A DNA stretch of 16,616 nucleotides from Massilia sp. (GCA_039927975.1 JBDSTZ010000252.1:1-16616); one strand, 5' to 3'; numbered from the stretch's first letter, positions 1,767 to 14,266 are shown. Made by a program: numbers and translations. The notes: generated from the letters alone by a model not told the origin.

Positions 1767-1892
1767 GCTTATCGGCGGCCAGCGTCGGCGCACTGGTATC
1801 ACAATATCAAGCCGGTATATGCGGCCCTGTTCGGGGCTTTGAAACGCGCGCGAAACCGCATACTGGTTGATCATCCACGCGCACAGCCCATC

Positions 1893-2720
1893 ATGAACTA
1901 CGGTTATCCCACGGTTGGCCCGCAGATCGCGTCAGCCACCAGCACGAGCGGCACCGGCAGCACCGGCAGCACCGGCAGCAGCACGCCCTTGTCGGCCGAC
2001 GTCGCGGCGCGCGTGAAGCAGACGCTCGCCGCACAGTCGACCGGCATCAACAAGCTCAATGACAGCCTGCTGCGCAACCAGACCAGGCTATCGGGCCTGG
2101 GCAAGCTGCAAAGCGCGCTGGCCGAGATGCAGGCCAGCGCCCAGAGCCTGTCGAGCGCGGCCACCGGCGCGAACGGCGTCGCGCCAAGCCAGGACGCCAG
2201 CCAGATCGGCAAGAACGTCCGCGCCTTCGTGGCCGCGTTCAATGCCATGAACGGCAAATTGCAAGCCTTGCAGGCGGGCGAACTCAAGTCCGATGCCGGC
2301 ATGAGCCGCGCGAGCGCCGAACTGGCGCAGCTGACTGGACTTGGCGGCGATGGCTTTTCGGCGCGCTCGCTGAGCGCGGCCGGCATCACGGTCGAGCGCA
2401 ATGGCAACTTGAAGATCGACGAGAAGGCCCTGACAGCGGCGCTGGCGAATGGTCCGTCCGCCGTCGGCGCGGTGTTTTCAAATGGCGGCAAGGGCCTGGC
2501 CGATGTGCTGGCCGACAGGCTGGCAAAACTGTCGAGCAAGGACGGCATGATCGGCAAGGAGTCGGCCAGCGCCAACAAGGAATTGAGCAGCGTGACGGCC
2601 CAGCGCACGGCGCTGGCCAAGGCGTTGACGGCGCAGGCGACCGCACTGGCGGCGATCTATTCGCGGCAGTCCGATGCACAGACCGGCAAGCCAAGCTCGC
2701 TGTTCGACATGCTGGCGTAA
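1893..2720 (+). CDS. Short FliD-family protein (flagellar filament cap / hook-associated protein 2-like) that has the N- and C-terminal FliD domains but no central head domains
   Basis: QTLAAQSTGINKLNDSLLRNQTRLSGLGKLQSALAEMQASAQSL aligns without gaps to the FliD_N consensus (..LqqkkstlqakiSAyGtLkSALstlQtalkaL). IGKNVRAFVAAFNAMNGKL matches the FliD linker pattern. LSAAGITVERNGNLKIDEKALTAALANGPSAVGAVFS matches FliD_C (ADIGITTDRNGKLSVDEAKLDKALKENPEAVKALFT). The protein is about 275 aa from the ATG at 1893; the track uses an in-frame TTG at 1839 as an alternative start. There is a Ser/Thr/Gly tract near the N-terminus (SATSTSGTGSTGSTGSST). GC3 bias is on the + strand, and the antisense ORF 1904..2620 is rejected. 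Confidence 0.6.
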   Translation: MNYGYPTVGPQIASATSTSGTGSTGSTGSSTPLSADVAARVKQTLAAQSTGINKLNDSLLRNQTRLSGLGKLQSALAEMQASAQSLSSAATGANGVAPSQDASQIGKNVRAFVAAFNAMNGKLQALQAGELKSDAGMSRASAELAQLTGLGGDGFSARSLSAAGITVERNGNLKIDEKALTAALANGPSAVGAVFSNGGKGLADVLADRLAKLSSKDGMIGKESASANKELSSVTAQRTALAKALTAQATALAAIYSRQSDAQTGKPSSLFDMLA

Positions 2721-2834: not shown

Positions 2835-2910
<76 letters not shown>

Positions 2911-2955: not shown

Positions 2956-3097
2956 TGCCAAATTGGCGCGGCCCGAGATTGGCGACGCGCGTGCCCGGCG
3001 CCGGCGTCGGGCCGAAGGCGGAGACAGGCAGACAGATTGCGTTTCACTCGGCCCCGCTTTTGATCGCAGGCCCAGCGGCCGGTCCAGCGCGTTGCCG

Positions 3098-3976
3098 CTA
3101 TTGGGCCCGGTCCAAACGCCGTGGCCGCTCGATCACCTCGCGGCAGGCCGCGGCGATGTCCGCTCCCCATTCGGCCAGCAGCGGCCCGGTCGGCACCAGC
3201 CGATCGTCGACTTCCAGCATGCCGATCCAGGCCCGCACCCGCACAGGCGCCAGCGCACCGAAGCACTGCTGGGCGACGACGTCCCTGCCGTTTTCCGGCC
3301 CACCCAAACGCTTGCCTGCACAGGAACCAGATTCCGGATGCAGCGGCGCGAAACCCGTTCCCTGGTTTCGCGAGTTGCCGCTCGTTTCATAGAACACGCT
3401 GATGGCGGGGGTGTAGCGCGTGAGCGTGTCCGGCAGCACCAAGGCGACGTCCCTGACCGCCGCTTCGTAGATATTCCCGGCATCGCCTTCCCACTCGATT
3501 TGCTGGCGCTGGCCGGCCGGGCCGCGGAAGCTCAGTGCCAGGCCGGCGGCGGACAGGTCGAGCGCGTCGCGATCGACCGTGAAGCGCGCTTCGAGCGGGT
3601 AGACTGGCCGGTAGTCGGGCGCGCGGCGATAGCGCAGGCTGTAGGTGATGCCTGGCGTGAAACCGCCGGCAAGTTCAAGGCGGAACAGGCGCGCGCCTCG
3701 CGGCAGGTCATTCGCCACCGGCCCTGGCCGCGCGACTTCCAGCGGCGTCACGATCAGTGCCGGCGCGAGCGCCAGTCCGGACGCGCTCACCTCGAAATCG
3801 GCAGGGTTGAGCCCCAGCGACTCGGGCACCATGAACAGCACGCCTCTCAGGTTGGACGGATACCGCTGCGCGCTGGCGTGCGGGAATCCGATCGTGGTGC
3901 TCGCGATGCACTGTGCCTGAGCGACGCCGTGCACGATTGCGGCGATGGCGAACATGACGATGCGAAGATGTTGCAT
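3098..3976 (-). CDS. Secreted protein of unknown function (Sec signal peptide), 292 aa
   Basis: An ATG at 3976 and a TAG stop at 3098-3100 bound the ORF. The N-terminus MQHLRIVMFAIAAIVHGVAQA-QC has a signal-peptide n/h/c structure. GC3 codon bias is on the minus strand. The overlapping + ORF 2963..4066 is Arg/Ala-rich with no motifs. No domain is recognisable by eye. Confidence 0.65.
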   Translation of the reverse strand: MQHLRIVMFAIAAIVHGVAQAQCIASTTIGFPHASAQRYPSNLRGVLFMVPESLGLNPADFEVSASGLALAPALIVTPLEVARPGPVANDLPRGARLFRLELAGGFTPGITYSLRYRRAPDYRPVYPLEARFTVDRDALDLSAAGLALSFRGPAGQRQQIEWEGDAGNIYEAAVRDVALVLPDTLTRYTPAISVFYETSGNSRNQGTGFAPLHPESGSCAGKRLGGPENGRDVVAQQCFGALAPVRVRAWIGMLEVDDRLVPTGPLLAEWGADIAAACREVIERPRRLDRAQ

Positions 3977-4064
3977 GGGGCGCCGGGAGGTTGTGAAGGA
4001 AATGCAAGCTTAACATGCGGCGTGCCACCCGGAACCATGGGCGCCAACGCCGCGAGCCACACGT

Positions 4065-4100
4065 AAAAAAGCCATCTGGCCCGGTGGGACCAGATGGCTT
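4065..4100 (-). terminator. Rho-independent terminator of the TonB-dependent receptor gene
   Basis: A perfect 11-bp stem aagccatctgg pairs with ccagatggctt (4069-4079 / 4090-4100) around a 10-nt loop. On the minus strand it is followed by six T (rc of A4065-4070). It lies 20 nt downstream of the TAA stop at 4121-4123. Confidence 0.8.
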
Positions 4101-4120: not shown

Positions 4121-7081
4121 TTACTGGCCGAAGCGGTAACGCAGGTTCAGCCCGAAGTTACGGCCGTTACGATAGTGCTGCAACTCGAGGCCGGTCTCGT
4201 AATTGCCACCTGGTTCGCCGATGTAGCGGTTAGGCGCCTTGTCGAGAATGTTCGAGGCGTTCAGCGAGAGGGTCAGGTCCTTGGTGATGTTGTAGTTGAC
4301 CGAGCCGTCCAGGATACCGTAGGCGCCCATGTAGCGGCCCAAGATCGGTTGGGCGTCGAGCGCGAACACGGCGGCCGAACGCCAGGTGTAGACCAGGCGG
4401 GCGGAGAACTTCTGGTCTTCATACATGCCGCTGAAGCTGGCGCTGTTTTTCGACTGGAAGGGCTGCCACAGCTTGACGATGTTCGGTGCCGCCGCGGTGC
4501 CGTAGTTGACCGGATTCTCGGTCGTGACGTAGGTGTACGAACCGGACACGCCGAAGTTCTTCAGCCAGCTCAGCGAGTTGTCGAAGAAGTACTGGCCCGA
4601 CAGTTCGACGCCGCGTGCGAAACCTTTTTCCGCGTTGACGCGCTTGCTGACGCGATACTGGCCGTTCGTGCAGCTGTTCGACACTTGTCCATTGCCCGGC
4701 ACGTAAGCCGGCGCATTGTCGAGCGTGACGCATTCGCTGACATCGCTGAAGAAGCCCTTGATGGATTTGTTGAACACCGCCGCCGCGACATAGTTCGTCT
4801 TGTTGAAGTAGTGTTCAAGCGACAGGTCGAGGTTGTCCGACACCAGCGGCTTCAATTCCGGATTGCCGCGGCTACCGGTGCCGTCGACCGGATTGTAGTT
4901 GACGAACGGGTTCAGGTCGCCCAGCGCCGCGCGGGTCATGCCCCGGCCATAGCCGAAGCGCAGCAGGGTTTCCTTGCTGATATCGTAGGTCGCGTTGAAC
5001 GATGGCAGGGTGTTGCTGTACTCGGTGGTGCGCGCATTGTCGATCAGGCCGTTGACGCTGTTGATCTTGGTGATGGCCGTGCCGTTGGTGCGCACATAGC
5101 GCACACCGACTGCGCCGCGCAGGTGCTCGTCGAGGGCGGCGAATTCACCGACCACGTAGATGGCCTTGGTTTTCTCGTCGACGTAGCGGCGGTCCTGGAT
5201 GCGCTCGAGCAGCGCGCTTTCCATCTGGATGCCGGCCAGCGGGAATTGCGAACGGACCTGGTCGCCGAGCAGCAGATCCGGCGAGTACACCACGTAACCA
5301 CCCGAATAACCGGTGGTGCCGCCCATGAAGTTGGTCGGCGACGACTGGGTCACGCCATAGGTGCTGGCGAGGATGCCGTTGCTGCGGTCGGCTGCCAGCC
5401 CTTTGCCGTCGGTGGTCAACGGACGGTTGTTGTAGCTCCAGTTCTGCGACAAGTCGTCCTGCTTGGCAAGGCGGGTGCCGAACTTGATGCGCTTGAACAG
5501 GCCGTCCTCGATCGAATAGACGCCGGACAAGGCGAGCGCTTTGGCGCTGTCTTTGGAGGCCGAATTGTTACCGTTGTTAAATTCGCGGAACACGAAGTTG
5601 CTCGGGTCCGACAGACTCGGGCCGCTGAAATTGAGGGTGTGCGGCGAGCCATCGGCGACGCGCGAGGTGGTCCACGACAGGCCGTTCTTGGAGTCGAGGA
5701 AAACCGTGCGGTTGTCGGTGCGCTTGGTCGCTTTCAGGAAGGCGTAATCGGCTTTCAGGGCCAGGCTCGGAGTCGGGTTCCAGTCGCTGCCAAACGCCAC
5801 GTTCCAGGTCGAGTACGGGGTATGTTCGTCCACCGACACGGTGTTCACGGTCGAGTTGAGGAAGTCACCGCTCAGGGCACGCTTGGTAGCGAGCACGTCG
5901 TTGGCGCCGCCGCTGACGTTGCGTGCCGACATACCCTTGTCGAAGGTGAACGGCGAGGTTTGCAGGTTCGCCACGTTGACGCCGTCGTTCGAATTGAGGG
6001 CGCGGTAGTTCTGGTGGTACAGGTAGTAGGTGTAGTTGCTTTCGACGTAGAAGCGCAGGGTGTTGTCGACGCGGTAGTCGGCGGCGCCACTGAAGCCCTT
6101 GCGCTCGCGCATGATGGTTTCCTGCGACACGTTGGTGTTCAACGTGGTCGTGACCATGATGTTGTCGATCTGCGCTTGGGTCAGGCCGGTGTTGTCGGGT
6201 GTGTTCGGGCCGATGCTGCCGGCCGTGTTACGGATCGGCACGTTGATCAGGGCATTGATGTCGCTGCGGCCGACAAACTGCGCCTGGGCCTGGAACGGCG
6301 AGTTGGTGGTGTTGGCGGCGGCCAGGGTCGCGTACTCGGCGCTGTCGGCGCGCACCGCGCGTTTCAGGGCCGGGCCGCGGTTGCCCGGGTTGTTATCCGA
6401 GCGGTTGGTGCTGTTCTGCAATTGGCCGGCCAGGGTGTAGCCGAAGCGGCTGCCGCCGCCGAGGTCAATGCGGTTGGCAATGAGTCCGAACACATCCGGC
6501 TCGGTCTGCTTGGCCAGGTCGTTGTAGCGGGCGCCGGCGGAGATCGCGCCGGTCAGGCCCAGCTTGAAATCGCTCGGGTTGCGGGTGCGCACGTTGACCA
6601 GGCCGCCGATGCCGCCTTCGATGTGCTCGGCCGATGGATTCTTGTAGACGTCGACGCCGGCGATCATGCCGGGAATCGCGCTTTCGATGTTGTATTCGCG
6701 GTTGCCGGCGGAGAAGAACGCACGGCCGTTCACCAGCGAGGCGGTTTGGCCGGACAGGCCGCGGATGGTCAGGCCCGAACCGTTGCCGACTGGCGCCGCG
6801 CCTTCGCCGCCGTAGCGGTAGCCCTGCACGCCTGGAATCCGGGTCAGCGTTTCGGCGACGTTCGGATCGGGCAGCTTGCCGATGTCTTCGGCGGTGATCG
6901 AGTCGACCACTTCCATCGCGTCGCGCTTGATGGCGACCGACGAACGGGCGCTGGCCTTCATGCCGGTGACGACGACGGTTGGCGTGACCGCGTCGTCTGC
7001 CGCTACATGGGCGGCAAAGGCTTGCGACACCGCGAGTGCGATGGCGGACACTTTGAGTGTTCTTTGGAAATGCTTGTTCAT
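4121..7081 (-). CDS. TonB-dependent outer-membrane receptor of the large (986 aa) type typical of oligosaccharide uptake
   Basis: The signal peptide is MNKHFQRTLKVSAIALAVSQAFA-AHV. A TonB-box-like TPTVVVTG is present. Plug-domain motifs include DSITAEDIGKLPDPNVAETLTRIPGV and LTIRGLSG. The long beta-barrel ends ...LNLRYRFGQ with a terminal aromatic-x-x motif. The RBS aggggat lies 8 nt upstream of the ATG at 7081. Confidence 0.95.
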   Translation of the reverse strand: MNKHFQRTLKVSAIALAVSQAFAAHVAADDAVTPTVVVTGMKASARSSVAIKRDAMEVVDSITAEDIGKLPDPNVAETLTRIPGVQGYRYGGEGAAPVGNGSGLTIRGLSGQTASLVNGRAFFSAGNREYNIESAIPGMIAGVDVYKNPSAEHIEGGIGGLVNVRTRNPSDFKLGLTGAISAGARYNDLAKQTEPDVFGLIANRIDLGGGSRFGYTLAGQLQNSTNRSDNNPGNRGPALKRAVRADSAEYATLAAANTTNSPFQAQAQFVGRSDINALINVPIRNTAGSIGPNTPDNTGLTQAQIDNIMVTTTLNTNVSQETIMRERKGFSGAADYRVDNTLRFYVESNYTYYLYHQNYRALNSNDGVNVANLQTSPFTFDKGMSARNVSGGANDVLATKRALSGDFLNSTVNTVSVDEHTPYSTWNVAFGSDWNPTPSLALKADYAFLKATKRTDNRTVFLDSKNGLSWTTSRVADGSPHTLNFSGPSLSDPSNFVFREFNNGNNSASKDSAKALALSGVYSIEDGLFKRIKFGTRLAKQDDLSQNWSYNNRPLTTDGKGLAADRSNGILASTYGVTQSSPTNFMGGTTGYSGGYVVYSPDLLLGDQVRSQFPLAGIQMESALLERIQDRRYVDEKTKAIYVVGEFAALDEHLRGAVGVRYVRTNGTAITKINSVNGLIDNARTTEYSNTLPSFNATYDISKETLLRFGYGRGMTRAALGDLNPFVNYNPVDGTGSRGNPELKPLVSDNLDLSLEHYFNKTNYVAAAVFNKSIKGFFSDVSECVTLDNAPAYVPGNGQVSNSCTNGQYRVSKRVNAEKGFARGVELSGQYFFDNSLSWLKNFGVSGSYTYVTTENPVNYGTAAAPNIVKLWQPFQSKNSASFSGMYEDQKFSARLVYTWRSAAVFALDAQPILGRYMGAYGILDGSVNYNITKDLTLSLNASNILDKAPNRYIGEPGGNYETGLELQHYRNGRNFGLNLRYRFGQ

Positions 7082-7153: not shown

Positions 7154-7169
7154 GGATATCGATAACAAA
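7154..7169. promoter_or_regulatory. Candidate operator ggATATCGATAACAAA upstream of the TBDR gene (copy 1 of a motif shared across the locus)
   Basis: The motif sits 73-88 nt upstream of the TBDR ATG, immediately downstream (minus-strand sense) of a TATGAT -10-like hexamer. Its 8-bp palindromic core TATCGATA is identical to the copies at 11298-11336 and 13794-13809. Confidence 0.45.
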
Positions 7170-7301
7170 CCGGAGCGATCATACGAGAATTTCTTTTGAT
7201 AATGAATACTTTTTTGACTTGTTGCGTATGTACAACGCTCAAGCGCCCCTCCCTCCTTTCTTGATGCGCGATACGCGCGACATGGCTCAACGGCGGCGCA
7301 T

Positions 7302-7375
7302 GTCGCGCGTGTCGTTCGTGGTCGCGCGTGTCGTTCGTGTCGCGCATGTCGTTCGTGTCGCGCATGTCGCGCAAG
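7302..7375. repeat. Tandem direct repeat with a 19-nt unit gtcgcgcgtgtcgttcgtg, two perfect and about two degenerate copies, in the PEP-CTERM/TBDR intergenic region
   Basis: Units are at 7302-7320 and 7321-7339 (both perfect), 7340-7357 (18 nt, G to A change), then a decaying copy. There are no interspersed unique spacers, so this is not a CRISPR array. It creates the artefactual MSFVSRMSFVSR peptide of track ORF 7328..8104. Confidence 0.75.
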
Positions 7376-7492
7376 TCGCATATGTCGTCCACATCGTCCG
7401 CATCGCGCGGCAACGCGGCAACACTAGCCCCGCCGACAGGGCGAGCGCCCCGTCGGCCGATCAAACATCGCGTGGAAAAATGCCTCGGTGGC

Positions 7493-8083
7493 TCAGCCCT
7501 GGCGGCGGCGCAGCGCGGCGAACATGGCGCAGCCGGCCACCAGCATCAGCAGGAACGGCGCCGGTTCCGGCACCTGGTTCACTTGCGTGAGCGCGTTGGT
7601 GACGAAGCTCAGTTGCTGGCCGATCGGCGCACCCGGCTGGACGAAAATGCTGCCGAGGTCGCCGTTGGCGCCCAGATAGCTGGTGTCGTTGAACAAGGCC
7701 CAGCTGAACGCGCTGCCGTCGCCGCTGCCGGCCACGAAGCTGACATCGAAGATGAAGTGGCCGCCCAGCGTGATCGCCTGTACCAGGTCGCCACCGCCGC
7801 CGGGGCTGCTGAACACGACTGTGCCTGGCAGCGCGCCACTGACCGAACCGCTGGTGTTCTCGGCGCCCACCAGCGCGCCGGTCAGGCCGCTGAGGGAGGC
7901 GCTGCTGCCAGTGTCGGACAACACCAGGAAATTGAAACCGAGGTAAGCGCTGCCGCTACCCAGGGTCGAGGTGTCGATGTCGACGTGGAAGTACGGCACG
8001 GCGGTCGCGCCGGCGCCGCCGGCCGAGGCGCACAGCGCGAGCGCCAGCGCCAGGCGTGCGAAGATATTTTTGTAGTGATGCAT
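7493..8083 (-). CDS. PEP-CTERM sorting-domain protein (putative exosortase substrate), about 196 aa, with a Gly/Ser-rich N-terminal domain of unknown function
   Basis: The C-terminus ...VNQVPEPAPFLLMLVAGCAMFAALRRRQG* is a canonical PEP-CTERM (VPEP, TM helix, Arg cluster). The signal peptide is MHHYKNIFARLALALALCASAGGAGA. A strong RBS AAGGAGA lies 6 nt upstream of the ATG at 8083. The track start at 8131 is rejected because it overlaps the upstream gene and has no RBS. The start is 10 nt downstream of the lyase A stop, so the two genes are in one operon. Confidence 0.85.
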   Translation of the reverse strand: MHHYKNIFARLALALALCASAGGAGATAVPYFHVDIDTSTLGSGSAYLGFNFLVLSDTGSSASLSGLTGALVGAENTSGSVSGALPGTVVFSSPGGGGDLVQAITLGGHFIFDVSFVAGSGDGSAFSWALFNDTSYLGANGDLGSIFVQPGAPIGQQLSFVTNALTQVNQVPEPAPFLLMLVAGCAMFAALRRRQG

Positions 8084-8093
8084 GGTGGTCTCC

Positions 8094-11000
8094 TTAATAT
8101 TTAACGCTGATGAATTTCGACGTGTACCCAATGGCCGCCTTGTTCGGATTCGAGAAGGTGGTCGTCAAGGTCACGGTCTGTCCAGGCGCCAGATCGGCCG
8201 CCGGCAGCGTGATGTACGGCGCGCCGTCATGCGTGCCGGTGGCGTTGTCGAGCGTGACGCCGGCGGTAAGGCCGTCGAGCCGGAATTGCAGCGGGCCGTA
8301 CAGCGTGGCGTCGCTGGTGTTGGTGATGCTGACGGTGCCGGTGTACTTGAGCGTGAAGCGGTTCATCGTCAGGCCCGAGCGCATGATCTTCGCGCTGGCG
8401 CCCAGGTCGACCGGGGTCAGCAAGTCGTAGCGGGTGCCGAAGAAGCGCAGTTCGCCGTACGACGAAATGCCGGGGAAGGCGGGATCGGTCGGCACGCCCG
8501 GATGGTCGACGCGCATCATGAAGTAGCGGTAGCGCTGCTTCTCCAGGCCTGGCACCACGGGGATGACTTCCATCTCGAAATTGCGCTCGGTGGTGTCGCT
8601 CGTTTCACGGCTCGACAGCAAGGTCCAGCTGGCGTTGTCGTTCGAGCCGTAGATGTTCAAGCCCTGCGAGCGGTTGGCGAACATGAAGCGCGCCTGCACG
8701 CCGATGGCGCCGAGCGACATCCGGTAGTCGGCGCCGAGATCGAGGTAGGCCGGCGCGCGCAGGTCGCCCGAGTAGCTGTTGTAGTCGCCGTCGACCAGCA
8801 GCGCGGCGCGGTTGCGGTCGAAATTGGTGGTGCCGGCGATGAAGTTCTTGCTCCAGTCCAGGCTGCCGTCGGCGACCACGAGCGGATTGAGCAGTTCCAG
8901 TTTGGCGGTCACGCCCTGCACTTGCTTGAGCAGGGCCGGGAAGTCGGCGTCGCTGGTGCTGTCGATGGCCGCCTGCAGCGGCGCCATGCTGGACTTGAAG
9001 GCGGCCAGCGACGGCGTGGTGTACACCTTCTCGGCGCTGTAGCCGTCCTGGGCGACCTGGAAGGCGGTGGCGCGGTCCGGTTGCACACTCAGGCGCGCCG
9101 TCATGGTGTTGATCGAGACGCCATCGGTGACGCTGATGACGATATTGTGCACGCCGACCTGGTCGGCGCCGGGGGTCCAGTTGAACTGGCCGCTGGCGCT
9201 GTCGAGGCTGGCGCCGGCCGGCAGGCTGATGCCCTCGTAGACCGGGGTGTCGGCGGCATTCGCGTCGGTCGCCTTGTAGTTGCCCGTGTACGGCACGCCC
9301 TGCACCACCAGCTCGGTGACGGGGAACGCCGGCGAGGCGAAGAACGGCACCGTCAGCTGGGTCGGCGCGGCCATGTTGACGAAGTCGACGTCCACCGTGC
9401 TGCCTTCGGCGCCGCTGAACTTGAAGACGATCAGGTTGGCGCCGAGCCACTTGCCGGCGGTCGCCGCGTTCGACGAGTCGGGCACGATGTAGCGCCACTG
9501 GCCGTGCGTGTTGGGCACCGTGATGTCGGCCCACGGACTGGCGTTCTGCTCGGCGCTGGCGCTCATTTTCATGACCGCGTTGGTGCGCACCATCATGCCC
9601 ACCGGGGCGAACTTGGCGCGGTCCGCATAGCCGACGTCGTGGAAGGCGATGGTGGCGCCGGCCGGCTTGACGTCGGCGTGGCCATAGGTGCGTCCCGCTT
9701 CGGTCTGGGTGGTCCAGGCGCCCGCGATGAAACTGCTCTTGCGTTCGGTCTGCAGCAAGCCCTGGTCGTTCGGCAGCGCCACGCCGGTCAGCGCGGTCGG
9801 GATGGTCAGGAAGGCTTGCGAGCCCATGTCCTTGTTGTTCGGCGTGGCGTTGCCCCAGAAAATGGCCGGGCCGTTCGAGTGGGCCGCCGCCGCCGCGAGG
9901 TAGGGCGCGGTCGCTTCGACGTCGACGCCTTCCTGGTACTTGTACATATTGTAGATTTCGGCGATCGCGTCGACTTCGTAGAGCCGGCCGCGGTACGCGC
10001 TCGACGGATAGGAGGTGCCGCCATTGGTGTCGGCCCACGGGATCTCGTAGCCGAGCATGTACTGGGCGTAGGCGTTGGCACCCTTTAGCAGGCGGTTGCC
10101 GCCGAACTGATAGACGCTGACCGCGTCGCCCAGGGTCGAGGGCTTGCCGCTGAAGGGATCGACCTTGGTGCCTTGCGCGTTGACCAGGCGGAACAGGCCG
10201 GACAGGATGTCGACGTTGTCGCCGCCGTGGGCTTGGTCGCGGGCCATTTCCTGGATCTGGTAGAACGGCACGCCGAACTTGTTGTACGGGTTGTTCACGT
10301 CGATGAAGGGAATCAGCGGCAGCACGGCGCCGTTGATGTTCTGGCGGGTCGAGGTGGCGTTGACCGTCATCCATTCGACGGTTTCATCGTAGCGCGCGCG
10401 GTTGTCGGTGAAGATCGCGCCCGCCATGCGTCCGACCAGCGAGTAATTGTGCTGGTTCATGAAGCGCTCGTTGCTCGAAAACAGCACGCGCTCGAGCGGG
10501 TCGATCAGGTTGTCCTTGAGCTTCTGGGTGTCGGTATCGGTCCAGGCGAGCGGATAGGAGGTGTAGCTCGGATCGGCGTAGGAGTAGCGCATGATCTCGG
10601 CCGCCTGCAGCATGCGCGAGAGCGGCACGCCGTTGTGGATGTGGGCGTCGGGGAAATACGCTGCGCCGGCCGGATTCATATTGCTCCAGGTGCGCAGGAT
10701 GCGCATGGCGTTGCGGCGATAGTCGTTATTGCCCGTCACGTAGTACAGGATGGCCTGGGTCAGCGCGCCTTGCGAATCGTTGATCAGGCGGGTCTGGGCC
10801 GTATTGTTGTTGAAGTTAGGGGTGTTCGGGGTGTCGACCTTGGTCGAGTCGCGGTTGGTCGGCTGCAGGTTGATGTTGGCGTAGTTGCAGCAGGCGGTGG
10901 CCAGCGCGTCGTAGTAACTCTTGTACGGCTCGACGTCGGCGCGCACCTGCTGACGCATGTAGTCGAGCTGCTCCATCGTGAAGCCGAGCGCCGGATGCTT

Positions 11001-11177
11001 GAAGCCGTTCGGGCTGACGACCGGCTGCGAGGCCGGGGTGGAGATGAAACCGAGCGCTTGAGCGGGCGCCGTTGCCAGCGCCCACAGGGCCGCGGCGACC
11101 GACACTGCCGTGACGCAGGCCTTGAGCGTGCCGCGTGCGGGACGCGCGATGCTGCCATTTTCATAACGATTGTGCAT
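8094..11177 (-). CDS. Secreted multidomain polysaccharide-lyase-like protein (about 1027 aa). Domains are an alginate-lyase/heparinase-type (alpha/alpha)-toroid with a beta-sandwich, a He_PIG-type Ig-like domain, an F5/8 type C (discoidin, CBM32-like) domain and a C-terminal beta-domain.
   Basis: The signal peptide is MHNRYENGSIARPARGTLKACVTAVSVAAALWALATAPAQA-LG. The ATG at 11177 with AAGGA 5 nt upstream is preferred over 11192, which has no RBS. The toroid region is paralogous to the next gene, sharing HP(A/G)L..T...(D)(F/Y)MR..V, AAEIMRY, a Q-HN motif and a RDQ(A/G)H motif. LPAGASLDSASGQFNWTPGADQVGVHNIVISVTDG matches the putative-Ig (He_PIG) pattern. ALLVDGDYNSYSGDLRAPAYLDLGADYRMSLGAIGV..IYGSNDNASWTLL matches F5/8 type C. 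The exact lyase family is unresolved. Confidence 0.75.
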   Translation of the reverse strand: MHNRYENGSIARPARGTLKACVTAVSVAAALWALATAPAQALGFISTPASQPVVSPNGFKHPALGFTMEQLDYMRQQVRADVEPYKSYYDALATACCNYANINLQPTNRDSTKVDTPNTPNFNNNTAQTRLINDSQGALTQAILYYVTGNNDYRRNAMRILRTWSNMNPAGAAYFPDAHIHNGVPLSRMLQAAEIMRYSYADPSYTSYPLAWTDTDTQKLKDNLIDPLERVLFSSNERFMNQHNYSLVGRMAGAIFTDNRARYDETVEWMTVNATSTRQNINGAVLPLIPFIDVNNPYNKFGVPFYQIQEMARDQAHGGDNVDILSGLFRLVNAQGTKVDPFSGKPSTLGDAVSVYQFGGNRLLKGANAYAQYMLGYEIPWADTNGGTSYPSSAYRGRLYEVDAIAEIYNMYKYQEGVDVEATAPYLAAAAAHSNGPAIFWGNATPNNKDMGSQAFLTIPTALTGVALPNDQGLLQTERKSSFIAGAWTTQTEAGRTYGHADVKPAGATIAFHDVGYADRAKFAPVGMMVRTNAVMKMSASAEQNASPWADITVPNTHGQWRYIVPDSSNAATAGKWLGANLIVFKFSGAEGSTVDVDFVNMAAPTQLTVPFFASPAFPVTELVVQGVPYTGNYKATDANAADTPVYEGISLPAGASLDSASGQFNWTPGADQVGVHNIVISVTDGVSINTMTARLSVQPDRATAFQVAQDGYSAEKVYTTPSLAAFKSSMAPLQAAIDSTSDADFPALLKQVQGVTAKLELLNPLVVADGSLDWSKNFIAGTTNFDRNRAALLVDGDYNSYSGDLRAPAYLDLGADYRMSLGAIGVQARFMFANRSQGLNIYGSNDNASWTLLSSRETSDTTERNFEMEVIPVVPGLEKQRYRYFMMRVDHPGVPTDPAFPGISSYGELRFFGTRYDLLTPVDLGASAKIMRSGLTMNRFTLKYTGTVSITNTSDATLYGPLQFRLDGLTAGVTLDNATGTHDGAPYITLPAADLAPGQTVTLTTTFSNPNKAAIGYTSKFISVKY

Positions 11178-11297
11178 GATTGTCCTTATCATTTTTTAAA
11201 TGACCAGGCGATCCAGGGGTCGCGTAGTTCTCCTCCAATGGTATGTTTTCGATACCACAAACGATGCTAGCATGATTTATTGTTATTTCAGTTAAGC

Positions 11298-11344
11298 TTT
11301 TTGTTATCGATATCCTCATTTTTGTTATCGATATCCAATGTCAA
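11298..11344 (-). promoter_or_regulatory. Promoter/operator region of lyase A. Two perfect 18-nt direct repeats tttttgttatcgatatcc at 21-bp spacing lie downstream of a consensus -35 TTGACA.
   Basis: Copies are at 11298-11315 and 11319-11336, separated by tca. Each contains the palindrome TATCGATA. On the minus strand the perfect TTGACA (rc of 11339-11344) is followed by operator 1 and then operator 2, placing the operators over the spacer/-10/+1 region. This is an AT-rich island in GC-rich DNA, 121-159 nt upstream of the ATG. Confidence 0.5.
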
Positions 11345-11468
11345 TACGCGACTCCCTATGATCACCTCGGCAAGTAGGGGGAAAGTGCCACTGCGCGGCG
11401 CGGACGCGGCTGTGCTCTCAAGTGCAACATTAGGCGAAAAAGCAACAGAATCCGGCGCACGGGCACGC

Positions 11469-11491
11469 AAAAAGGGGCGCCGAAGCGCCCC
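11469..11491 (-). terminator. Rho-independent terminator of lyase B
   Basis: The stem ggggcgc pairs with gcgcccc around a cgaa loop (11474-11491). It is preceded on the + strand by AAAAA (11469-11473), which gives a U-tract on the minus strand, and lies 44 nt downstream of the TAA stop at 11535-11537. Confidence 0.6.
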
Positions 11492-11534
11492 ACCCTTGCA
11501 GCAAAAACCGAATGGCACCCGGGGCGCCGCCCGC

Positions 11535-13703
11535 TTAACTTTGCATCAGCGTGACAATCTCGCTGGCGCTGAGCGCGCCGCTGTAGATGCGGAAGTCGTC
11601 GATTTTGCCGTTGAAGTAAGGGTCGCTGGCGTATTGCGAGCGGCCGATCCAGTTCTGGTTGGTCGAGCCGAGCCGGAACGGCGCGTGCTTGATGTCGGGG
11701 CTCGATCCAACCAGTGCGCCGTTGACGTAGAGCGAGCCGTTGCTGCCTGCCAGGGTCACGGCCACGTGCACCCACTGCCCGGTCGGCAGCGCGGCGGTGC
11801 CGACGATGCCCTGTTCGCCGACGCCGTAATCGGTCGTGATGCCAAAGCGCAGCAGGCCGTTGTTGGTGCTCGGGGTCAGCATCATGTAGTGCTCGGTGCC
11901 GTTACCGAAATCGAAGATGCGCGTCCAGTTGCGCGCGGCGTCCCAGTACACCCAGGCGGCGATGGTGAAGTCGGCCAGCGTGCGCACCACGTCAGTCGGC
12001 AGGCTGACGTAATCGTTGCTGCCGTCGAAGGCCAGCGCGTTGCCGCTGCGCCCGGCCACCCACAACGGACCGTTGACCAGGGTGCCGGACTGGCCGCGCC
12101 CGGTGGCGTCGGCCGCCACCGTGCCGCTGGTTTCGTCGAACTTGAGCCAGACGTGCGGACGCTTGCCCGCGCCGACCTTCACCTCGGCCGAGGGCGCGCT
12201 TTCGCCGGCCGGGCCGACCGCCGTCACCACGTAATAATAGAGGCCGCTGCTCACGCCAGTGTCGGTCCAGGTGAGCAAGTCGCTGATGCCGCTGGCGACG
12301 GTGGTGTACGGCCCGCCCGAGATGGTGGCGCGCTTGACCTTGTAGCTGGTGGCCTGGGCACTGCCCCACCACGACAGCAGCACCGCGCCGCCGCTCCAGT
12401 TTCCGGTCAGCCCGCTTGGCGCTGCACCGGCGGCGTATGGATCGCGCGTGAAGGTGAGCGTGCCAAAGCCAAGCTGGTCACCGTTGCCGCCGTTGTTTTC
12501 CGGACGCATCTGCGCGGCCTGCAGCGCGGTGTACGGCGCGGCCAGGCCCTTGCGGTTGACGTAGTGGTTCAGCACCAGTTCCCACACCGGACGCAGGCTG
12601 CCCTGCGAGGCCGGCGACAGCCCCGGCTGGGTGTTGTTGATGTTCTTGTAGAGCGTGAACGGCACACTGTAGTGGGCGCCGCTGGCGTCGGTCAGATTCG
12701 ATTTCGCCACATACTCCGAGCCGGCCAGGAAGCGGTTGTTATCGTAGCCGAACATGTCGTCGCCCTGGTTCCAGGCCATTTCGCAAAACACACTGGCGAG
12801 GCCGATCCCCAGCGTGCAGTGGCCCTGATCGCGGCCGCTTTCCTGCCACTGTCCCAGATGACCCGGATGCACGTAGTACACGGCCTGGCTGCTGCTGCCG
12901 TTGCCCGCTCCGGTCTTGAAGTAATTGATCGCCTCGTCGTACAGGTCGGCGCGGTCGCAAAAGACGCCGATCGCGATGATCGCGGCGATCGTGCACTGGT
13001 CCCAGTTGGCCCAGTAATTGGTGATGTCGGCGCCGTTGTGCTGGACCAGGAACTGGTGGTTCAGCGGATAGAAGACATTGAGCAGCAAGTTCTGGAACTT
13101 GGTCTGGTCGGCCGCCGCCCAGCCGGGATAGGTGCGCATGATTTCGGCGGCGTTGGCCCATTCGTAGCCTTGGATGCCGGCAGCGAGGAAGCGGTCGGCG
13201 TTGCCGGTCAGGGTCGTCATGGTCGACGACCAGGCGTTCAGGAAGACCACCGCCTGGTCGGCGTAGGCGGTGTCGCCGGAAACCTTCCAGCGCAGCGCCA
13301 TCTGGTAGGTGCGATGGATATCGATAACCATTTGGTTCACGTTGTCGCCGGTGCCGCCGCGGATCACCGTCTGCAGCGCGCGCGGCGCGGTGCCGAGCTG
13401 GGAGTAGCCGTTGGCCAGCAGAGCGTTCCAGCCGTCCAGCCAGGGCTGGGCGCCGGCCGTCACCTTGGCGCGCATGCGGGTGAAGTCCGCTTCGGTGTGC
13501 AGCAGGCCCGGGTGGATGAAGGTGCGCGCGACCAGGGCGTCGGCGAGCAGGGTCGGCGCCGCCGCGCCGGGGGCCGCCGTGGAGGTCTCGGCCGCGCCGC
13601 CGCAACCGGACAGGCTGAGCGGGCCGAGCGTGGCCAGCCCGAGTCCGCCCGCGCACAGCGAACGGCGTTTCATGGAAAATTTTTGATCGTTGTTATTTGA
13701 CAT
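11535..13703 (-). CDS. Lipoprotein alginate-lyase-family-like (alpha/alpha-toroid) polysaccharide lyase with a C-terminal fibronectin type III domain and a LamG_3 (concanavalin A-like lectin) domain, 722 aa
   Basis: The ATG at 13703 has GAGGAG 5 nt upstream. The N-terminus MSNNNDQKFSMKRRSLCAGGLGLATLGPLSLSGC has a lipobox LSGC, and the RRSL may indicate Tat export. The catalytic toroid is paralogous to lyase A (FIHPGLLHTEADFTRMRAKV, AAEIMRTY, VQHN, RDQGHCTLG). An FN3-like segment follows (SWWGSAQATSYKVKRATISGGPYTTVASG...YYYVVTAV). LamG_3 motifs are also present (WVYWDAARNWTRIFDFGNG....GKIDDFRIYSGALSASEI). Confidence 0.8.
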   Translation of the reverse strand: MSNNNDQKFSMKRRSLCAGGLGLATLGPLSLSGCGGAAETSTAAPGAAAPTLLADALVARTFIHPGLLHTEADFTRMRAKVTAGAQPWLDGWNALLANGYSQLGTAPRALQTVIRGGTGDNVNQMVIDIHRTYQMALRWKVSGDTAYADQAVVFLNAWSSTMTTLTGNADRFLAAGIQGYEWANAAEIMRTYPGWAAADQTKFQNLLLNVFYPLNHQFLVQHNGADITNYWANWDQCTIAAIIAIGVFCDRADLYDEAINYFKTGAGNGSSSQAVYYVHPGHLGQWQESGRDQGHCTLGIGLASVFCEMAWNQGDDMFGYDNNRFLAGSEYVAKSNLTDASGAHYSVPFTLYKNINNTQPGLSPASQGSLRPVWELVLNHYVNRKGLAAPYTALQAAQMRPENNGGNGDQLGFGTLTFTRDPYAAGAAPSGLTGNWSGGAVLLSWWGSAQATSYKVKRATISGGPYTTVASGISDLLTWTDTGVSSGLYYYVVTAVGPAGESAPSAEVKVGAGKRPHVWLKFDETSGTVAADATGRGQSGTLVNGPLWVAGRSGNALAFDGSNDYVSLPTDVVRTLADFTIAAWVYWDAARNWTRIFDFGNGTEHYMMLTPSTNNGLLRFGITTDYGVGEQGIVGTAALPTGQWVHVAVTLAGSNGSLYVNGALVGSSPDIKHAPFRLGSTNQNWIGRSQYASDPYFNGKIDDFRIYSGALSASEIVTLMQS

Positions 13704-13793
13704 TCGGTCTCCTCTTCAGTTGAAAGCCCGCGTGCCCGGCGAGATTGTCGAGCATGAACGGGGGTGCTTGAAGCAGGCAGATTATGCGCGGTA

Positions 13794-13809
13794 TTTTATC
13801 GATAACACG
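13794..13809. promoter_or_regulatory. Candidate operator ttTTATCGATAACAcg (perfect 10-bp palindrome TTATCGATAA) upstream of lyase B, adjacent to a CATAAT -10-like hexamer
   Basis: The site lies 91-106 nt upstream of the lyase B ATG on the minus strand. On the minus strand the order is TGTTATCGATAAAA, then taccgcg, then CATAAT. It is the same motif as at 7154-7169 and 11298-11336. Confidence 0.45.
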
Positions 13810-13901: not shown

Positions 13902-13977
13902 ATGCATTTGAGATGCATTCGGCATGCAATCACTATGCAATCAGCATGCAATCAGCGTTCAATCAGCGGGTAATCGT
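13902..13977. repeat. Array of 7 heptads ATGCA(A/T)T (decaying to gttcaat and gggtaat) at exact 11-bp spacing, with a core unit ATGCAATCAGC
   Basis: Heptad starts are at 13902, 13913, 13924, 13935, 13946, 13957 and 13968. The array lies in the divergent intergenic region between lyase B (-) and the flotillin-like gene (+). It creates a spurious N-terminal extension of track ORF 13784..16222. Confidence 0.8.
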
Positions 13978-14266
13978 GATGCGGTGGATATGTACTCGGT
14001 CGGCGAACCGCAACGTGCGCAATGGCCCGGACCGGTCCGGCGCTGCGCAGGGAGCACAGGATGCGGCATCAGGACGCCCGACGTTTACGGATTGTTTACG
14101 CCATCCGGCAATGTCTTTACGACATTTTTATCGCCGGGCCGATACGCTGATTGCATGGCCGAACCCTCTGTTGTCCCGCCGCCCGCGCAGCGCGCCGGCC
14201 GACACCGAGGCGCCCACTTTGTCGACCGCCGTGTTCGCCGCGCGTCGACTGTATCGAAGGAACGCT

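What the first reader, a model, noticed from the sequence alone, without database searches (positions are those of the whole stretch)
7154..13809. Shared palindromic motif TATCGATAACA(AA) in the promoter regions of all three lyase/TBDR transcription units, suggesting one regulon with an unseen regulator
Four copies occur. One is upstream of the TBDR (7154-7169, ggATATCGATAACAAA). Two are upstream of lyase A (11298-11315 and 11319-11336, a perfect 18-nt duplicate at 21-bp spacing). One is upstream of lyase B (13794-13809, containing the perfect 10-bp palindrome TTATCGATAA). In each case the site overlaps or abuts a -10-like hexamer (TATGAT, CATAAT) or follows a consensus TTGACA. That is the classic placement of a repressor operator. 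A 16-nt AT-rich motif is very unlikely to recur four times in about 9 kb of about 68% GC DNA by chance. No candidate regulator is encoded in the window.
Basis: seen in the sequence. Interest (0 to 1): 0.75.

Follow-up and report, generated by a model that had tools for sequence, protein, structure and literature searches.

The report
LacI-type operator for a polysaccharide-utilisation regulon
The repeated TATCGATAACA motif is real and conserved, and is most likely the binding site of a LacI-family repressor encoded elsewhere in this Massilia genome that switches on an outer-membrane importer and two putative polysaccharide lyases; this is an ordinary kind of bacterial gene switch, newly defined here.

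Summary
TATCGATAACA occurs exactly four times, all in the three promoter-bearing intergenic regions. Shuffles expect about 0. A fifth, weaker site lies at 11244-11257.

The full motif is a 14-bp near-palindrome with a central CG, TG(D)TATCGATA(H)CA. That is LacI-family operator geometry.

It is not a dispersed repeat. The same sites sit at the same promoter positions upstream of the orthologues of all three units in Pseudoduganella, Massilia and Duganella.

I found a likely regulator, a LacI-family protein. In relatives it is the last gene of the orthologous TBDR operon, or carries the site in its own promoter. The same MAG very probably encodes it on another contig.

Across 83 loci, 16 of 19 whose homologue lacks the hinge leucine carry the motif. 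None of 64 with the leucine do; those carry TAGCGCTA-type boxes instead.

Each unit has an operator overlapping a predicted -10, +1 or -35 region, which implies repression.

Binding, transcription starts and the inducer are untested. This is a new member of a known kind, of modest interest.

The parts
7154..7167 (.). Operator upstream of the TBDR gene. It reads TGTTATCGATATCC on the gene strand, lies 73-86 nt before the ATG at 7081, and spans about +4 to +17 relative to the predicted -10.
   Evidence: Orthologous TBDR promoters in L013 and L015 keep TGTTATCGATAACC as the main conserved island of the alignment.
7178..7183 (-). Predicted -10 hexamer TATGAT of the TBDR promoter, 10 nt upstream of the operator.
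   Evidence: Read. TATG is kept at the corresponding place in L013 and L015. It was not detected by the strict two-hexamer scan, and the transcription start is unmapped.
4121..7081 (-). TonB-dependent receptor gene (986 aa) of the TIGR01782 Xanthomonas/Caulobacter carbohydrate-type subfamily; target 1.
   Evidence: Pfam Plug and barrel domains. NCBIfam TIGR01782 scores 485 bits against a cutoff of 310. It is 62-63% identical over its full length to the TBDR that heads the TBDR-GH127/DUF6805-LacI operon in L013 and L015.
11244..11257 (.). Proximal operator of lyase A. It reads TGGTATCGAAAACA on the gene strand, begins 6 nt after the extended -10, spans about +1 to +14, and lies 67-80 nt before the ATG at 11177.
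   Evidence: It aligns with the near-invariant TG(G/A/C)TATCGATAACA of 10 orthologues.
11264..11272 (-). Extended -10 of the lyase A promoter, TGcTAGCAT.
   Evidence: It aligns with the conserved CATGCTATATT block between the two operators in the orthologues.
11302..11315 (.). Distal operator 1 of lyase A. It reads GGATATCGATAACA on the gene strand, at about -58 to -45.
   Evidence: The orthologous distal site (A/G)GATATCGATAACA is present in 10 loci.
11323..11336 (.). Distal operator 2 of lyase A, a window-specific 21-bp tandem duplicate of distal operator 1, at about -79 to -66.
   Evidence: Perfect 18-nt duplicate at 21-bp spacing. It is absent from the orthologues. Spacing of 21-22 bp is the documented signature of cooperative LacI-family double sites (PMC4052901).
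8094..11177 (-). Lyase A gene (1027 aa) with an alginate-lyase-like domain and a He_PIG domain; target 2.
   Evidence: Pfam hits are weak for the lyase domain (1.5e-5). There are 12 orthologues at 68-72% identity. No solved relative was found.
7493..8131 (-). PEP-CTERM protein gene (NF038129 family). It overlaps the end of lyase A and is probably co-transcribed with it.
   Evidence: The gene pair is conserved in all 12 loci.
13794..13807 (.). Operator of lyase B. It reads TGTTATCGATAAAA on the gene strand, ends 7 nt before CATAAT, spans about -33 to -20, and lies 91-104 nt before the ATG at 13703.
   Evidence: The orthologue in L013 has TGTGATCGATAACA followed by 7 nt and CATAAT, the same layout.
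13781..13786 (-). Predicted -10 hexamer CATAAT of the lyase B promoter.
   Evidence: Identical hexamer at the same spacing in L013.
11535..13703 (-). Lyase B gene (722 aa) with an alginate-lyase-like domain and a LamG/Laminin_G_3 domain; target 3.
   Evidence: Pfam hits. A GAGGAGA Shine-Dalgarno sequence precedes the ATG at 13703. The two NCBI annotations give 712 and 722 aa.
11474..11491 (-). Terminator-like hairpin plus T-run after lyase B, which separates it from the lyase A unit.
   Evidence: 7 G-C pairs, then TTTTTG.
13316..13329 (.). Near-match GGATATCGATAACC inside the lyase B coding sequence; probably fortuitous.
   Evidence: It encodes MVIDIH, and the orthologue reads TATATCGACATCGC.

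Best explanation
The motif is the operator of a LacI-family transcription factor.

The consensus is the 14-bp near-palindrome TG(D)TATCGATA(H)CA with a central CG.

The factor belongs to the subfamily represented by P0121 in Pseudoduganella namucuonensis. The MAG's own copy is P0242 / MEO7578121.1, on a different contig of what is very probably the same Massilia MAG.

Inferred mechanism:
- Without inducer, a dimer sits on operators that overlap the RNA-polymerase footprint.
- For the TBDR the operator spans about +4 to +17.
- For lyase A the proximal operator spans about +1 to +14. Two upstream operators lie two helical turns apart from each other.
- For lyase B the operator spans about -33 to -20.
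- Binding of a sugar-derived inducer releases the repressor, and the importer and the two putative lyases are expressed together.
- The inducer is probably a product of uronate-polysaccharide breakdown, such as an unsaturated oligosaccharide or a KDG-pathway intermediate.

Shown here: the sites, their conservation, and their co-occurrence and covariation with the transcription-factor subfamily.

Inferred only: repression rather than activation, the -10 and +1 positions, cooperativity of the 21-bp pair, and the inducer.
For: 1. The sites are far beyond chance.

2. Phylogenetic footprints.
- In the alignment of lyase A upstream regions, the invariant columns fall almost entirely in the two operators, and the near-invariant ones add the extended -10 between them.
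- The motif is present in 11 of 12 loci; the twelfth is truncated.
- The lyase B and TBDR orthologues keep the site in the same promoter position.

3. Geometry fits the LacI family.
- LacI motifs are even palindromes with a central CG. More than 75% of sites lie at -140 to -30 from the start codon. Double sites at 21-22 bp are documented. 72% of these factors are autoregulated (PMC4052901).
- The exact palindrome TGTTATCGATAACA has been called cre-like in Lactobacillus (PMC9141943).

4. Candidate regulator.
- In L013 and L015 a LacI gene is the last gene of the orthologous TBDR operon. That operon carries the site, sits next to the lyase B orthologue, and is divergent from a site-bearing kduI operon.
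- In L016, L018-L021, L034 and L081 the site lies 42-290 nt upstream of the LacI gene itself.

5. Covariation between protein and DNA.
- 19 loci have a homologue lacking the hinge leucine (AAR-[A/N/S]-[A/T]-R). Of these, 16 carry the ATCGAT-type site (32 sites in 247 kb).
- 64 loci have the canonical AARxLA hinge. None carries it in 634 kb; 17 carry TAGCGCTA-type boxes instead.
- Fisher exact p = 1.9e-14.
- This matches the published LacI-family code: Arg at position 20 pairs with G at nucleotide 6, and hinge residue 55 is linked to nucleotide 2 (PMC2978694).

6. The lyase B and LacI protein accessions fall in the same two NCBI accession series, only 63 apart in one of them. This indicates the same MAG.

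7. No RNA family and no consensus RNA fold were found in the leader. Site orientation differs between units. Both point to a DNA-level site.
Against: - There is no binding or expression data.
- Transcription starts are unmapped, and the strict sigma-70 scan found no two-hexamer promoter in this region.
- The regulator is not in the window, and its contig could not be retrieved. Same-MAG origin therefore rests on accession proximity alone.
- Three of the 19 no-leucine loci lack the site; all three are short contigs.
- A lyase-B-like tandem pair in Massilia antarctica (L014) has no site.
- The loci in the covariation test are phylogenetically related, so the p-value overstates independence.
- The subfamily has Ala or Thr at the canonical leucine-lever position. 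That is atypical for a factor that still reads a central CG.
- The spacing between distal and proximal lyase A operators is 55-58 bp, which is not a whole number of helical turns. The protein also shows no obvious LacI-like C-terminal extension (my reading of the alignment). Looping is therefore not supported.
- The same MAG encodes a paralogue, P0177, with an identical recognition helix. Which paralogue acts here is unresolved.
Confidence: 0.82

Rival explanations
1. The motif is the site of a regulator from another family (GntR, IclR or similar), or of an activator, and the nearby LacI gene is coincidental.
For: The regulator is absent from the window and from the 12 lyase A loci. The upstream lyase A sites, at about -50 and -70, are where activators often bind. 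The pattern GT...AC is also seen in some GntR-type sites (my own knowledge).
Against: The clean split between hinge type and box type, 16 of 19 against 0 of 64, is hard to explain if the LacI protein were unrelated. Sites in the LacI genes' own promoters point the same way. So does the central-CG 14-mer geometry. At least one site per unit overlaps the predicted core promoter or +1, which is a repressor position.
Confidence: 0.1
2. The motif is a dispersed repeat fragment (REP or MITE), or a restriction-modification or methylation target (ATCGAT is the ClaI site), with no regulatory role.
For: It is a short AT-rich palindrome. The window contains a tandem 21-bp duplication and one coding-region near-copy.
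Against: There is no similarity beyond about 16 nt between copies. The sites are kept at orthologous promoter positions across genera while their flanks diverge. The close matches I examined lie 12-290 nt upstream of glycan-utilisation genes or of the LacI gene. There are none in 634 kb of loci carrying the sister LacI clade.
Confidence: 0.03
3. The element acts at the RNA level, as a 5'-UTR structure or leader peptide, rather than as a DNA operator.
For: Several sites probably fall just after the transcription start. A conserved GGAGAC...CGATA block follows the proximal lyase A site, and some orthologues have short upstream ORFs there.
Against: Site orientation is opposite in the TBDR and lyase A units. 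The lyase B site lies upstream of the -10. No Rfam family was found. The consensus fold has zero predicted pairs. The reading frames and peptides of the upstream ORFs are not conserved, and the window has no start codon there.
Confidence: 0.03

Closest known systems
Local LacI-family sugar-utilisation regulons reconstructed by comparative genomics (RegPrecise-type; for example ScrR of Burkholderiales with obligate double sites at 21-22 bp; PMC4052901)
   Same: An even palindrome with a central CG. Sites lie mostly 30-140 nt before start codons. An autoregulated factor controls transport and catabolic genes. Double sites are two helical turns apart.
   Different: This orthologous group and its TATCGATA box were not found in that paper's text or its held supplements. 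The factor has Ala or Thr rather than Leu at the hinge lever position. The targets are a TBDR and uncharacterised lyase-like proteins.
XylR-type LacI repressors and the xyl box of Caulobacter and Xanthomonas (TGTTAGCGCTACCA occurs in Caulobacter Pxyl; PMC2175322). That XylR binds it, and that Xanthomonas XylR controls TBDR/xylanase CUT loci, is my own knowledge.
   Same: Homologues at 48-59% identity found in the same scan carry TG(D)TAGCGCTA(M)CA boxes next to their genes. The outer half-site (TGnTA...TAnCA) is the same, and so is the logic of a LacI repressor controlling a TBDR-based glycan locus.
   Different: The central tetranucleotide is TCGA here and GCGC there. This tracks the hinge: A/T-R here against L-A there. 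That the sister clade is XylR was not tested.
KdgR regulons for pectin and KDG catabolism (IclR-family KdgR of Dickeya and enterobacteria; LacI-family KdgR of Bacillus subtilis; my own knowledge)
   Same: The functional theme matches: polysaccharide lyases, uptake, and kduI-kduD-kdgK under one repressor.
   Different: Dickeya KdgR belongs to a different protein family with a different box. No equivalog-level match to any named LacI regulator was found; all NCBIfam hits were below cutoff.
cre / CcpA catabolite-responsive elements of Firmicutes
   Same: TGTTATCGATAACA fits the cre pattern with one mismatch, and that exact palindrome has been called cre-like (PMC9141943).
   Different: CcpA with HPr-Ser-P is a global Firmicute system. 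Here the factor is a local regulator in a betaproteobacterium, linked to its target loci.

Membership tests
LacI-family operator | Even-length palindrome of 14-22 bp with a central CG | tested here: met
   TG(D)TATCGATA(H)CA. G at position 2 of the 14-mer was invariant in 21 of 21 orthologous sites even though it was not part of the search pattern. Family rule from PMC4052901.
LacI-family operator | Located in promoter regions, typically 30-140 nt upstream of the start codon | tested here: met
   Window sites lie at -67/-80, -73/-86, -91/-104 and -125/-138. The duplicated copy at -146/-159 is just outside the typical range.
LacI-family operator | A cognate LacI-family gene is linked to target loci and often carries the site itself (autoregulation) | tested here: met
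   L013 and L015 have a TBDR-...-LacI operon with the site. L016, L018-L021, L034 and L081 have the site 42-290 nt before the LacI gene. This is not met inside the window itself, where no regulator gene is present.
LacI-family operator | DNA-reading residues covary with the motif | tested here: met
   Hinge without leucine goes with the ATCGAT core (16 of 19 loci). Hinge with leucine goes with the AGCGCT core (0 of 64 with ATCGAT, 17 of 64 with AGCGCT). Arg at position 20 with G at nucleotide 6 fits PMC2978694.
LacI-family operator | Direct, inducer-sensitive binding of the protein to the site | not testable with these tools
   Requires EMSA, footprinting or DAP-seq.
LacI-family transcription factor (candidate regulator P0121 / P0242) | N-terminal LacI HTH (PF00356) plus a periplasmic-binding-protein-like effector domain | tested here: met
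   Precomputed Pfam hits PF00356, PF00532 and PF13377. PurR, CcpA and RbsR structures match at 1e-43 to 1e-45.
LacI-family transcription factor (candidate regulator P0121 / P0242) | Hinge-helix leucine lever (position 54; Leu in 82% of the family) | tested here: not met
   Ala aligns with PurR Leu54 in all Oxalobacteraceae members aligned, in the hinge AARAAR. Family rule from PMC2978694. This feature is typical rather than obligatory, so membership stands.
REP / MITE dispersed repeat | Many copies with extended conserved flanks and no promoter bias | tested here: not met
   Similarity ends at about 16 nt. Close matches lay in AT-rich stretches, and those examined were upstream of genes.
Known RNA element (Rfam) | Match to a covariance model, or a conserved fold | tested here: not met
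   The only Rfam hit in the window is a tRNA at 2838-2910. The lyase A leader has no consensus pairs.

The most novel reading that the evidence does not exclude
The regulator may belong to a LacI subclade that dropped the canonical hinge leucine lever, with Ala or Thr at position 54 and Arg at position 55. In doing so it would have switched the operator centre from GCGC (XylR-like sister clade) to TCGA. That would be a natural two-residue specificity switch.

The Massilia MAG also carries two paralogues, P0242 and P0177, with identical DNA-reading heads but diverged effector domains. Two sugar signals could therefore converge on the same operators that control uncharacterised lyases and a TBDR.
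Probability: 0.3. Interest if true: 0.5.

Novelty: new member of a known kind. Interest (0 to 1): 0.35.

Why it matters
- It links three genes annotated only by domain (a TBDR and two alginate-lyase-like proteins with no solved relatives) to a kduI/kduD/kdgK, GH43/51/78/88/97/127/28 and PL1 gene set. This points to an acidic, plant-type polysaccharide containing rhamnose and arabinose as the substrate.
- It gives Oxalobacteraceae, which are abundant in rhizosphere soils, a testable regulon and a testable operator-repressor pair.
- The hinge-versus-box covariation is a clean natural example of the LacI recognition code. It could be used to design orthogonal repressors.
- None of this is a new kind of mechanism.

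Tried and rejected
- Extending the window. The TBDR, lyase A and both versions of the MAG's LacI protein are not in the positional index, and the window is the whole 16,616-nt contig.
- Looking for a LacI gene in the window and in the 12 lyase A loci by tblastn with PurR. None was found.
- A strict sigma-70 two-hexamer scan. It returned zero hits, so promoter assignments rest on conserved -10 elements.
- A leader peptide or RNA structure downstream of the proximal lyase A site. I rejected this.
- The internal lyase B site as a lacO2-like auxiliary operator. It is not conserved.
- Naming the lyases by solved structures. Only accessory domains matched for lyase B, and nothing matched for lyase A.
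- Literature searches for the motif, and for a LacI/kduI/TBDR regulon. No prior description was found.
- First attempts at hinge classification. One failed on a faulty pattern match and one on BLAST gap placement. Both were replaced.
- One simulation timed out and was rerun.

Full report
**1. Observation**

The window is a complete 16,616-nt contig of a Massilia sp. MAG. It is 64.5% GC.

All relevant genes are on the minus strand:
- a TonB-dependent receptor (TBDR), 4121-7081;
- a PEP-CTERM protein, 7493-8131;
- lyase A, 8094-11177, with an alginate-lyase-like domain and a He_PIG domain;
- lyase B, 11535-13703, with an alginate-lyase-like domain and a LamG domain.

A terminator-like hairpin follows lyase B. 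The PEP-CTERM gene overlaps the end of lyase A. The three transcription units are therefore [lyase B], [lyase A-PEP-CTERM] and [TBDR...].

TATCGATAACA occurs exactly at 7157-7167, 11302-11312, 11323-11333 and 13797-13807. Whole-window shuffles expect 0.07 matches at up to 1 mismatch. A Markov null restricted to the AT-richer intergenic DNA gives about 0. The 18-nt perfect duplicate at 21-bp spacing is confirmed.

Two further matches exist. The first is a weaker intergenic site at 11244-11257. The second is a coding near-match at 13316-13329. The coding match encodes MVIDIH and is not conserved.

**2. What the motif is**

Twelve orthologous lyase A loci were retrieved from Pseudoduganella, Massilia and Duganella, at 68-72% amino-acid identity. 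Eleven carry the 11-mer; the twelfth is truncated at its 5' end. In ten of them two copies lie about 55 bp apart upstream of lyase A; L010 is arranged differently.

In the alignment of upstream regions, the invariant columns fall almost entirely in the two sites. The near-invariant columns add the element between them:
- a distal site, (A/G)GATATCGATAACA;
- an extended -10, CATGCTATATT;
- a proximal site, TG(G/A/C)TATCGATAACA, starting about 6 nt after the -10.

The G at position 2 of the 14-mer was invariant in 21 of 21 sites even though it was outside the search pattern. The unit is therefore the 14-bp near-palindrome TG(D)TATCGATA(H)CA.

The window's weak site at 11244-11257 is the orthologue of the proximal site. 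The site at 11302-11315 is the orthologue of the distal site. The site at 11323-11336 is a lineage-specific duplicate.

Only the lyase A-PEP-CTERM pair is syntenic in those loci. Other close matches in the same loci precede a GH78-like rhamnosidase, a GH51 arabinofuranosidase, GH43 genes and a PL1 pectate lyase.

**3. The regulator**

The closest lyase B orthologue (75% identity, P. namucuonensis, locus L013) lies beside an operon of TBDR (982 aa), DUF6805 and a LacI-family gene. That operon is divergent from kduI. The L013 TBDR is 63% identical to the window's TBDR.

L013 has sites in three places:
- before lyase B, as TGTGATCGATAACA followed by 7 nt and CATAAT, which is exactly the window's layout;
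- before the TBDR-LacI operon;
- 42 nt before the kduI ATG.

Pseudoduganella sp. LjRoot289 (L015) repeats this arrangement, with TBDR-GH127-LacI opposite kduI-kduD-kdgK. This is the same genome as L004, where lyase A and the GH78-like gene also carry sites. In Duganella violaceipulchra (L016) the site precedes the LacI gene, next to GH88, an MFS transporter, GH97, PfkB and KduD genes.

The LacI protein is conserved at 70-88% identity across the Massilia group. It has no named equivalog.

The MAG itself very probably encodes the regulator. MEO7578121.1 (P0242, 22,239-nt contig) is only 63 accessions from lyase B (MEO7578058.1). A paralogue, P0177, is also present. Neither contig could be retrieved.

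**4. Covariation test**

A metagenome scan with P0242 returned 80 more loci. I classified homologues by their hinge helix:

| Hinge type | Loci | Loci with ATCGAT-type site | Loci with AGCGCT-type box |
|---|---|---|---|
| No leucine, AAR-[A/N/S]-[A/T]-R | 19 (247 kb) | 16 (32 sites) | 0 |
| Canonical leucine, AARxLA (HTH mostly SPMTVSRV) | 64 (634 kb) | 0 | 17 |

Fisher's exact test gives p = 1.9e-14. The loci are related by descent, so this overstates independence.

Eleven of the 32 ATCGAT-type sites lie within 400 nt upstream of the LacI start. This fits the 72% autoregulation reported for the family.

The pattern also fits the published recognition code (PMC2978694). Arg at position 20 pairs with G at nucleotide 6. 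Hinge residue 55 is linked to nucleotide 2, which is T here and G in the sister clade.

The sister box resembles the TGTTAGCGCTACCA found in Caulobacter Pxyl. That XylR binds that sequence is from my own knowledge.

Genes downstream of sites in these loci include TBDRs, GH43, GH97, GH28, LacY-type MFS transporters and GlcNAc-2-epimerase-like genes.

**5. Mechanism**

Positions below are relative to conserved or predicted -10 elements, read:
- TBDR operator: about +4 to +17;
- lyase A proximal operator: about +1 to +14;
- lyase A distal operators: about -58 to -45 and -79 to -66;
- lyase B operator: about -33 to -20.

Each unit therefore has an operator inside the polymerase footprint. The simplest reading is repression by occlusion, relieved by an inducer.

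The 21-bp pair matches the family's documented cooperative double-site spacing. The 55-58 bp gap between the distal and proximal operators is not in helical phase. The protein also shows no obvious LacI-like C-terminal extension (my reading). I therefore do not propose looping.

The inducer is inferred only from regulon content (kduI, kduD, kdgK, GH88, lyases). Transcription starts, binding and the inducer are all untested.

**6. Rival explanations**

- Dispersed repeat or methylation site. Excluded by promoter-specific, cross-genus conservation without flanking similarity, and by the absence of the motif from 634 kb of sister-clade loci.
- RNA-level element. Disfavoured because site orientation differs between units, there is no Rfam hit, and there is no consensus fold.
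- Another transcription-factor family. Unlikely given the covariation.

**7. Comparison and novelty**

This works like a local LacI-family sugar regulon and, by every feature testable here, it is one. The exception is the typical hinge leucine, which is Ala in this subfamily.

Functionally it parallels the KdgR regulons and the Xanthomonas XylR/TBDR CUT loci. The exact palindrome has been called cre-like in a Lactobacillus, but this is not the CcpA system.

I found no earlier description of this box or this orthologous group.

The regulator is now identified by comparative evidence. It is a new member of a known kind, of modest general interest.

Noticed in passing
window 11190-11243 (minus strand); L001-L012 about 10-40 nt downstream of the proximal lyase A operator: A conserved GGAGAC block is followed, 7-9 nt later, by (T/C)CGATA(C/T)G. 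Its centre lies about 33 bp (three helical turns) from the proximal operator. It could be a weak third half-operator. It is degenerate in the window itself. The short upstream ORFs that start there are not conserved in frame or peptide.
   Followed up: partly
window 7296-7387: A tandem array of a 9/18-nt unit (TGTCGCGCATGTCGTTCG, about 3.8 copies) with inverted-repeat arms at 7269-7284 and 7299-7314. It lies between the PEP-CTERM gene and the TBDR promoter. Its function is unknown.
   Followed up: no
window 13913-13967 and 14144-14157: Five tandem copies of the 11-nt unit ATGCAATCAGC, with a perfect 14-nt inverted copy 185 nt away. They lie in the roughly 560-bp region between lyase B and the divergent SPFH/Band 7 gene. 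This looks like a site array for a different DNA-binding protein.
   Followed up: no
window 7493-8131 and 8094-11177; L001-L012: Lyase A is always followed by, and usually overlaps, a gene for an NF038129-family PEP-CTERM protein. The pair is the only syntenic block across the 12 genomes, which suggests a functional partnership between the putative lyase and an exosortase-sorted protein.
   Followed up: partly
L013 16946-16973: In the P. namucuonensis TBDR-LacI promoter the TATCGATA box abuts a second LacI-type palindrome, TGTGAACGCTAACA, of the TAGCGCTA class. This hints at control by two LacI-family factors. A perfect TGTTAGCGCTAACA also precedes an MFS_2 transporter at L009 20734.
   Followed up: no
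P0121 / P0242 hinge helix (protein): The candidate regulator subfamily has AARAAR where PurR has VARSLK. This puts Ala at the leucine-lever position and Arg at position 55, yet the operators keep a central CG.
   Followed up: partly
window 2838-2910 (minus strand): A tRNA gene (Rfam, 62.9 bits) lies between the FliD-like ORF and the gene or genes downstream of the TBDR.
   Followed up: no
window 1839-2720 (plus strand): A 293-aa ORF matches FliD_C (1e-17) and weakly matches FliD_N. It stands alone next to an APP1-type phosphatidate-phosphatase-like gene (297-1766), which is an odd context for a flagellar cap protein.
   Followed up: no
window 13672 / 13703: The two NCBI annotations of the same contig start lyase B at different ATGs, giving 712 and 722 aa. 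A GAGGAGA Shine-Dalgarno sequence 5 nt before 13703 favours the longer form.
   Followed up: partly
window 2963-4066: Downstream of the TBDR, where relatives have GH127/DUF6805 and the LacI gene, the window has overlapping ORFs on both strands (3098-3976 on the minus strand, 2963-4066 on the plus strand). Neither has a Pfam or NCBIfam match. No remnant of the LacI or GH127 genes is detectable by tblastn.
   Followed up: partly
L014 10001-14528: Massilia antarctica has two tandem lyase-B-like genes (66% identity) with no TATCGATA box nearby. Not all members of this lyase family belong to the regulon.
   Followed up: no
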